A DNA stretch of 62,882 nucleotides, filler included, from Kipferlia bialata (Eukaryota): the NCBI GenBank assembly GCA_003568945.1. It is 4 parts of 4 records of this genome, joined end to end, with 100 filler letters (N's around TTAATTAATTAA, not from the genome) between each part and the next. Parts side by side here need not be neighbours in the genome. Positions count along the whole stretch, not along the records: positions 59,871 to 62,882 come from BDIP01000450.1; 3 more parts are not named here. One strand, given 5' to 3'. Positions 60,704 to 61,242 of the stretch are shown in pieces (position 1 is the stretch's first letter; each line of letters begins with the position of its first letter). The notes beneath the pieces were generated by a model. That model was not told the origin of the DNA. It saw only the letters and a program-made list of their open reading frames with translations, and made no database searches. The translations under genes and the position numbers were made by a program.

Positions 60704-61242
60704 TCTCCATCTCTCACTCCAGTGACCTTTGATACCGACAGCTCCCTTGGCGGTGACGACGGATACACTGGTATGTATGGTTATATATGTATGTCTATGT
60801 ATATTTGTATATACCAGGTATGTATATATATGTATGTGTATGCATGTGACGACGGATACACAGGTATGTTTGTGTATATATGTATGTGTACATATGTACA
60901 TGCGCATATATATACACATATATGTGCCCATATATATATATCGGATACACTGGTATTTATATATATATACATATACCTCAATCTAGTTTTCACCTGTGAC
61001 TACTGTGACGACGGATACACAGGTATTAATTAGTATATATGTATGTATGTATCCTCCCCATCTCTATGCTTACTCTAAGCTTCACCTGTGACTACTGGAC
61101 AAACGACTACATAACTCTCTATGTCTCTCTCTATGTATGTATGTATATATGTATGTGTGTGTGTCTATGTATTTATATATGCTTACTCTAGGCTTCAGGT
61201 GTGACTGCTGGACCAACGACTACATCCCAACTGATTACTTCT

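What the first reader, a model, noticed from the sequence alone, without database searches (positions are those of the whole stretch)
60977..61030. Candidate newborn exon made from a duplication junction
Seen: 60987-61022 is a 36-nt unit, ctcaatctag|TT TTC ACC TGT GAC TAC TGT GAC GAC GGA TAC ACA G|GTATT, fusing the START of the downstream exon (F-x-CDY) to the END of the upstream exon (DDGYTG). This swapped order is the expected junction of a tandem duplication of an intron with its flanks. It has both splice sites and phase 1-1 like the host intron. Inference: inclusion would add 12 residues in frame, a direct route to intron and exon gain.
Basis: partly seen in the sequence, partly recalled or inferred. 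Interest (0 to 1): 0.75.

Follow-up and report, generated by a model that had tools for sequence, protein, structure and literature searches.

The report
Skipped exon look-alike from intron duplication
Inside an intron of a likely membrane-protein gene of the protist Kipferlia, a 36-base piece joins the start of the next exon to the end of the previous one, likely through a small DNA duplication; the main transcripts skip it, likely because its splice acceptor has decayed and is predicted to be hidden in a hairpin.

Summary
The 36-nt unit is real as described: 60987-61022, AG and GT ends, swapped exon pieces, in frame (+12 residues). It lies in an intron of Kipferlia bialata gene KIPB_002622. 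It is not a newborn exon of the main mRNA: spliced contigs from 2 of 2 studies join exon 60723-60770 straight to exon 61288. Its acceptor scores below all 37 hand-placed real ones and is predicted to be paired in a 94-nt hairpin. Both halves match older intronic copies better than the true exons, so the duplicated piece was likely internal to the intron. Such splice-site copies are common here: 12 of 35 introns in three genes, one gene picked for its repeats. A second swapped junction is 13 nt and frameshifting. Closest known: amphioxus 'mirages' and intron multiplication by tandem duplication. The scan noted boundary copies before in other genomes. Low-level inclusion is not excluded, as contigs drop rare forms. 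Open lead: nearest copies are in frame 11 of 17 times.

The parts
60987..61022 (+). 36-nt junction cassette: start of downstream exon (60987-61005) fused to end of upstream exon (61004-61022), 2-base overlap
   Evidence: skipped in the spliced contigs
60977..60986 (+). Cassette acceptor with changed branch motif (A instead of C after the presumed branch A) and TAG end
   Evidence: 4.8 bits against 7.0-17.0 for 37 real acceptors
61023..61028 (+). Cassette donor; same six bases as a hand-placed real donor at 52155
   Evidence: 6.9 bits, within the real range 4.0-12.3
60959..61052 (+). Predicted RNA hairpin centred on the junction; pairs the acceptor AG and the donor GT; outer arms are TA repeats
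   Evidence: prediction; window chosen after seeing the fold
60846..61004 (+). Inferred duplication unit 1 (donor copy A1 to exon-start copy B0)
61005..61096 (+). Inferred duplication unit 2 (donor copy A3 to exon-start copy B1)
60845..60869 (+). A1: copy of upstream exon end with intact strong donor, offset 93 nt, in frame, not used in the contigs
60942..60958 (+). A2: short copy of upstream exon end with donor
61061..61112 (+). B1: acceptor plus downstream exon start, AG changed to AA
61178..61248 (+). B2: acceptor plus downstream exon start, intact acceptor, offset 96 nt, in frame, not used in the contigs
60220..60323 (+). Host exon E1 (first exon on this contig; mRNA contigs reach further upstream)
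   Evidence: its acceptor placed by branch motif, not by RNA
60723..60770 (+). Host exon E2 (48 nt, phase 1-1)
   Evidence: its last 30 bases are the loose letters before E3 in both runs
61288..61408 (+). Host exon E3 (holds the hydrophobic, likely membrane-spanning stretch)
61484..61550 (+). Host exon E4
   Evidence: spliced joints in both runs
61674..61727 (+). Host exon E5
   Evidence: spliced joints in both runs
62364..62420 (+). Host exon E6, coding part to the stop
   Evidence: loose letters behind E5 in both runs
60416..60462 (+). Copy of E1 end with intact donor (second, decayed copy at 60570-60591)
60102..60153 (+). Copy of E1 acceptor and start (second copy at 59984-60014)
60605..60631 (+). 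Decayed copy of E2 acceptor and start (13 of 17)
61824..62099 (+). Three copies of E5 end with intact donors (61824, 61938, 62059), all skipped in the contigs
25152..25164 (-). Second swapped-order junction candidate, 13 nt, frameshifting, in the MFS-like gene

Best explanation
The 36-nt unit is a pseudo-exon that the main mRNA skips, likely made by a short tandem duplication inside an intron that already held copies of both of its own splice sites. Inferred history: earlier small duplications copied the upstream exon end plus donor (A1, A2) and the acceptor plus downstream exon start (B1, B2) into the intron. A later slip copied the segment from A1 to B1 and joined B1's start to A1's start over a 2-base overlap. 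That put an acceptor copy 36 nt before a donor copy. A 7-base complementarity between the A1 donor and the B1 start may have held the two breakpoints together (inferred). It likely stays silent because its branch motif has decayed and the acceptor is predicted to be buried in a hairpin. Shown: sequence anatomy, match to intronic copies, skipping in the dominant contigs. Inferred: order of events, slippage mechanism, cause of silencing, absence of rare inclusion.
For: Skipping: in 2 of 2 runs (two studies, one contig each, depth 607.8 and 3.69) the 30 loose letters before exon 61288 are bases 60740-60769 of E2, not the cassette. Origin: cassette start matches B1 17/19 against true exon 15/19; cassette end matches A1 23/23 against true exon 21/23. 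Overlap at the junction is 2 bases with A1 and B1 as templates, 1 with the true exons. Acceptor: 4.8 bits, below all 37 leave-one-out scores; base after the branch A is C in 33, T in 4, A in 0 of 37; window-wide excess over control only for C. Hairpin: -32 kcal/mol, 0 of 200 shuffles, 5 of 307 intronic windows as low. Background: 12 of 35 introns hold such copies against 6 of 2252 mismatched pairings. As DNA, unit 1 is closed by the 7-base stem in both the best and centroid folds, z -2.06.
Against: Contigs drop rare forms, so low inclusion is untested; no read was laid on the cassette itself. The donor is normal and not unusually paired: 22 of 35 real donors are as paired. 3 of 35 real acceptors are as paired as the cassette's. 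Cruder acceptor models put 3 of 22 and 1 of 23 real sites at or below the cassette. A3 shares its donor bases +1..+5 with A2, not A1, which needs an extra deletion or conversion. The whole-intron fold is not significant (z -1.66), the hairpin window was picked after seeing it, and unit 2 does not form the 7-base stem as DNA. Nearest copies are in frame 11 of 17 times, which hints that inner sites are sometimes used.
Confidence: 0.72

Rival explanations
1. The cassette is a minor alternative exon, included in a small share of transcripts and adding 12 residues to the likely extracellular part of the protein; the hairpin would tune rather than block it.
For: Both dinucleotides intact, donor in the real range, in frame without stop. 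Young human exons are included in under 10% of transcripts on average and have weaker sites (PMC2592719, passages). In-frame excess of nearest copies, 11 of 17, one-sided p 0.008, post hoc.
Against: No contig in 2 runs shows it, one at depth 607.8. Acceptor below all 37 real ones. A like junction is 13 nt and frameshifting. Only 7 of 14 in-frame copies are free of stops.
Confidence: 0.17
2. History: the whole intron with its true exon flanks was duplicated first, and the true exons changed later or the copies were homogenised. The cassette may have been spliced for a time and has since decayed. This rival concerns origin and overlaps with either view of present use.
For: A2+short intron+B0 and A3+short intron+B1 look like two copies of a small intron with flanks and share donor bases +1..+5. 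Divergence from the true exon rises from B2 to B1 to B0. The route is known (TOUCH3, CNN00420).
Against: Needs a two-base, residue-changing substitution in the true exon and a repeated change at one base among A1, A2, A3. The left breakpoint of A3 coincides with that of A1. The second junction also sides with intronic copies.
Confidence: 0.2
3. The junction is an assembly artefact of short reads in a repeat-rich, possibly heterozygous region.
For: Microsatellite-rich region about 1.1 kb from a gap and linker. The published draft of this species is a short-read assembly of a likely diploid (PMC5874029, passages). No DNA run was listed to check.
Against: The copies differ from each other by substitutions and have different flanks. 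The same layout recurs in another gene. From general knowledge, de Bruijn assemblers collapse repeats more often than they invent diverged ones.
Confidence: 0.03

Closest known systems
'Mirages' of amphioxus: tandem duplications of exon-intron boundaries in Adh3, troponin C, globins BflGb6/BflGb9 and PGBD5 (PMC3087553 and PMC3902484, passages)
   Same: Copies of donor or acceptor boundaries inside the intron, similar unit size, many with intact AG/GT, normal splicing apparently unaffected. PMC3087553 already proposes recruitment of such a copy as a new exon.
   Different: Here an acceptor copy and a donor copy are fused in swapped order, giving both sites at once. Intron parts of the units are rewritten by TA/TC microsatellites. 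The host is a metamonad protist. Haplotype or somatic instability was not testable.
Intron multiplication by tandem duplication of an intron with exon flanks: Arabidopsis TOUCH3 (seen only as described in PMC4974935 and PMC2395259) and Cryptococcus CNN00420 (PMC2395259, passages)
   Same: Predicts a hybrid exon of downstream-exon start plus upstream-exon end between two intron copies.
   Different: There the duplicated introns count as introns of the gene; here the hybrid piece is skipped, and its halves match intronic copies.
Intron gain by tandem genomic duplication: Rogers model, ATP2A1 (PMC3265369, abstract and Discussion) and potato RdRp (PMC4974935, passages)
   Same: Short intragenic duplication reuses existing splice signals; the potato case inherits the acceptor from the parent intron.
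   Different: Those create a new spliced intron from exonic or acceptor-spanning sequence; no new intron is spliced in the main mRNA here.
Pseudoexons masked by RNA stems in human ATM and CFTR (PMC1935003, abstract and section titles only)
   Same: Unused splice sites located in RNA stems.
   Different: Shown by experiment there, only predicted here; those did not arise as exon-end duplications as far as the abstract says.

Membership tests
Mirage-type exon-intron boundary duplication | Tandem copy spans an exon-intron boundary of its own gene | tested here: met
   11 copies in 3 of 5 host introns; null 6 of 2252
Mirage-type exon-intron boundary duplication | Many copies keep AG or GT | tested here: met
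   21 of 26 copies keep the dinucleotide
Mirage-type exon-intron boundary duplication | Regular splicing is unaffected | tested here: met
   Dominant contigs of 2 of 2 runs use the outer sites at E2/E3 and E5/E6; rare forms not visible
Mirage-type exon-intron boundary duplication | Minisatellite-like head-to-tail units alike over their whole length | tested here: inconclusive
   Tandem Repeats Finder finds only microsatellite-type arrays in the host gene, but 103-nt and 80-nt units in the MFS-like gene; PGBD5 cases are also imperfect
Mirage-type exon-intron boundary duplication | Copy number varies between haplotypes or cells | not testable with these tools
Intron multiplication with a new hybrid exon (TOUCH3, CNN00420 type) | Hybrid piece of downstream-exon start plus upstream-exon end | tested here: met
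Intron multiplication with a new hybrid exon (TOUCH3, CNN00420 type) | Both intron copies are spliced, the hybrid exon is in the mRNA | tested here: not met
   Skipped in the one contig of each of 2 runs; minor use untested
Intron multiplication with a new hybrid exon (TOUCH3, CNN00420 type) | Duplicated unit is the whole intron with the true exon flanks | tested here: inconclusive
   Three diagnostic bases favour intronic templates, donor bases +1..+5 favour an A2/A3 pair
Rogers-type intron gain | Duplicated segment is purely exonic and holds one AGGT used as both sites | tested here: not met
   Units carry intronic acceptor or donor sequence
WBP-1 / RCR-like single-pass membrane proteins (host protein) | Pfam score above the curated cut-off | tested here: not met
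   WBP-1 21.8 bits against 28.1; RCR 14.4 against 27.8

The most novel reading that the evidence does not exclude
Kipferlia bialata copies its own splice sites into its introns genome-wide, nested copies keep producing two-sited cassettes like this one, and these are spliced in at low level and filtered by selection for frame. This would be an ongoing source of new exons and introns in a protist with about 125,000 introns, and the steady choice of the outermost of several equal sites would show exon-level site recognition by a reduced metamonad spliceosome.
Probability: 0.2. Interest if true: 0.7.

Novelty: new member of a known kind. Interest (0 to 1): 0.36.

Why it matters
The cassette alone is a by-product. 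The setting matters more. Introns with copies have a median length of 283 nt against 89 without, so these duplications likely lengthen introns here. The main mRNA passes over three inner donors scoring as well as or better than the real one, and over an intact inner acceptor. That is unexpected if short introns are recognised across the intron (general knowledge) and gives a natural test of splice-site choice in a lineage with 87 of 174 surveyed spliceosomal proteins (PMC6679479). If two-sited cassettes are used at low level, the exon-recruitment model drawn for amphioxus mirages becomes testable on thousands of loci, and bears on whether this species' introns are ancestral or partly gained, which PMC5874029 leaves open. 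The copies can also mislead gene prediction.

Tried and rejected
No whole genome is held, so the genome-wide search was not possible. No holder on record as RNA was listed and both runs are guessed RNA; their contigs are spliced at GT..AG. No exact match of a 28-base junction pattern in metagenome contigs: uninformative. Host protein: no Pfam family above cut-off, Atlas hits at most 0.76, no relative but its own record, so ancestral exon states are unknown. Gao and Lynch 2009 is not held. No paper held 2 of 3 terms on chimeric exons. Search on Kipferlia and splicing or decay returned only general papers, so presence of nonsense-mediated decay in this species is unknown. Hairpin as DNA is weak (z -1.25) and units 1b and 2 fold no better than shuffles. 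Hairpin masking is not general: the three other two-sited pseudo-cassettes gave z -2.03, -1.67 and 0.71. In-frame length as evidence of function was rejected: 1-in-3 chance, and 2 of the 4 two-sited pseudo-cassettes are in frame. No earlier notes on this genome or protein.

Full report
Setting. The window is eukaryotic and made of pieces joined by N-flanked linkers; the last piece starts at 59871. Forty codons of the exon at 61288 found one protein among one candidate, named by its source as Kipferlia bialata KIPB_002622, 155 aa. Six exons placed by coordinates give 146 residues contained in that record. I later moved the start of the first exon from 60230 to 60220, where the branch motif lies. 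The protein has one hydrophobic stretch followed by a run of arginines and a proline- and tyrosine-rich tail, so it is likely a single-pass membrane protein. It resembles WBP-1 and RCR families only below their cut-offs.

Observation. The unit is at 60987-61022, 36 nt, between AG and GT. Inserted between exons 60723-60770 (E2) and 61288-61408 (E3) it adds 12 residues without a stop. Its halves match the E3 start (15 of 19) and the E2 end with donor (21 of 23); 0 of 1000 shuffles of the intron reach either match.

Is it spliced? Two runs from two studies, kept as contigs and guessed to be RNA, hold part of the gene. Laid on 61275-61735, each gave one contig, spliced at both introns in that stretch with GT..AG ends. 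In both, the 30 loose letters before E3 are bases 60740-60769 of E2. The cassette would differ in the first 13 of these and in the last. So the dominant mRNA goes from E2 to E3 and skips the cassette, and also the inner donor A1 and inner acceptor B2. The loose letters behind E5 are the start of E6, so three inner donor copies are skipped too. Depths are 607.8 and 3.69. Contigs drop rare forms and no read was laid on the cassette, so minor inclusion is untested. The public model also skips it but may rest on the same RNA.

Origin. The intron holds three copies of the E2 end (A1 60846, A2 60942, A3 61005) and three of the E3 start (B0 60989, B1 61079, B2 61192). The cassette is B0 fused to A3. 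B0 matches B1 at 17 of 19 and A3 matches A1 at 23 of 23, both better than the true exons; two bases in B and one in A side with the intronic copies. With A1 and B1 as templates the two matches overlap by 2 bases at the junction. The simplest reading is a tandem duplication of the segment from A1 to B1 (units 60846-61004 and 61005-61096). One feature does not fit directly: A3 shares donor bases +1..+5 with A2, which needs a later deletion or conversion between A1 and A2. Metamonads lack the Ku-dependent end-joining proteins (PMC8516963, passages), so microhomology-based repair or slippage is a plausible source; this is inference. The three diagnostic bases complete a 7-base complementarity between the A1-type donor and the B1-type start, and that stem closes unit 1 when folded as DNA (z -2.06) but not unit 2.

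Splice signals. I placed introns by hand in two more genes: 17 in a phospholipase-B-like gene (511 codons without stop; 6 of 6 exons tested hit Phospholip_B, 3 above cut-off) and 13 in an MFS-like gene (458 codons to the stop; only 1 of 6 exons hit MFS_1, below cut-off). These models are not RNA-checked. Real acceptors carry a branch-like motif close to the AG, as described for related fornicates (PMC6679479, passages). After the presumed branch A the base is C in 33, T in 4 and A in 0 of 37; my rule for picking the A favours C, but an independent window-wide count shows excess only for C (60 against 34.5 and 56 against 34.8 expected; A: 12 against 18.3 and 13 against 17.7). The cassette has A. 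It scores 4.8 bits against 7.0-17.0. Earlier, smaller models put 3 of 22 and 1 of 23 real sites at or below it. The donor is ordinary (6.9 in a range of 4.0-12.3).

Hairpin. Folding the intron showed a stem centred on the junction, 60959-61052, pairing both the AG and the GT. The 102-nt window gives -32 kcal/mol, z -4.13, 0 of 200 shuffles; 5 of 307 overlapping intronic windows are as stable. The core rises from -11.3 when rebuilt from the true exons to -15.2 from the intronic copies and -17.1 as it stands. Caveats: the window was chosen after the fact, the outer arms are TA repeats, the whole intron is not significant (z -1.66), 3 of 35 real acceptors and 22 of 35 real donors are as paired. 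Masking of pseudoexon sites by stems is known in human genes (PMC1935003, abstract). It is a likely contributor here, not a shown one.

How common? 12 of 35 introns hold copies of their flanking exon ends (27 copies): 3 of 5 in the host, 8 of 13 in the MFS-like gene, 1 of 17 in the phospholipase-like gene; 6 of 2252 mismatched pairings reach the threshold. The MFS-like gene was picked because it showed repeats, so the rate is biased upward, and one of its introns spans a gap. A window-wide scan of 248 acceptor-like and 641 donor-like sites gave 33 rows, some redundant or on the wrong strand, against 0 in 3 block shuffles. A second swapped junction lies at 25164-25152 on the minus strand: 13 nt, frameshifting, again matching intronic copies; two more pseudo-cassettes of 40 and 93 nt got a donor from the breakpoint. 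For a frame test I dropped the five copies of the gapped intron and added four found in other calls: 14 of 26 offsets are multiples of three (p 0.025), 11 of 17 for nearest copies (p 0.008), but only 7 of 14 in-frame extensions lack a stop. This is post hoc and copies are not independent.

Comparison. The one-sided copies work like amphioxus mirages, a lead taken from an earlier scan note and checked in PMC3087553 and PMC3902484 (passages); the first already models recruitment of a copy as an exon. Duplication of an intron with exon flanks is described for TOUCH3 (second-hand) and Cryptococcus CNN00420. Rogers-type gain differs (PMC3443670, passages; PMC3265369, abstract and Discussion). I found no description of such copies in Kipferlia: 33 papers hold 'Kipferlia' and 'intron', 20 were listed and I read passages of 3; searches added none. 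Most subscription papers are not held, and I read no supplements; those of the genome paper could mention intron repeats.

Verdict. A real duplication junction and a skipped pseudo-exon of a known kind, interest 0.36. The better lead is the density of splice-site copies in this species and the consistent use of the outermost sites. Exon-level recognition is one explanation; decay of mis-spliced RNA is another and was not testable.

Noticed in passing
window 25164-25152, minus strand: Second swapped-order junction candidate, 13 nt with AG and GT ends, in the same A, A1, junction, B1, B layout; its halves side with intronic copies. The downstream-exon part is only 4 bases, so the reading is weaker.
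   Followed up: partly
window 29209-29117 and 28447-28408, minus strand: Acceptor-plus-exon-start copies whose breakpoint into a TA repeat creates a donor, giving two-sited pseudo-cassettes of 93 nt (in frame) and 40 nt.
   Followed up: partly
window 61824-62099: Three copies of the E5 end with donors scoring equal to or above the real one; one is identical over 39 nt. Both mRNA contigs use the first donor.
   Followed up: partly
host, MFS-like and phospholipase-like genes: Offsets of the nearest splice-site copies are multiples of three in 11 of 17 cases; post hoc, small sample.
   Followed up: partly
window 60123-60229: The public protein model starts with residues read from the intronic copy of the E1 start, while mRNA contigs run further upstream; the model's N-terminus is likely an artefact at the contig edge.
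   Followed up: partly
window 26740-27290, minus strand: Five copies of one acceptor plus exon start in a 658-nt intron that spans an 8-base gap; two copies beside the gap are identical and may be an assembly overlap.
   Followed up: partly
window 50842-53949: Phospholipase-B-like gene with at least 17 short introns (67-148 nt); only one holds an exon-end copy; last exon not resolved.
   Followed up: partly
window 38247-38644, 54726-54882, 55636-55800, 56572-56667, 6771-6922: Further local diverged repeat pairs, several with splice-site-like edges; genes not modelled.
   Followed up: no
window 22216-22315, 44520-44619, 59771-59870: Identical N-flanked linkers with stops in all frames; the window joins separate contigs, so neighbours across them are not true neighbours.
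   Followed up: no
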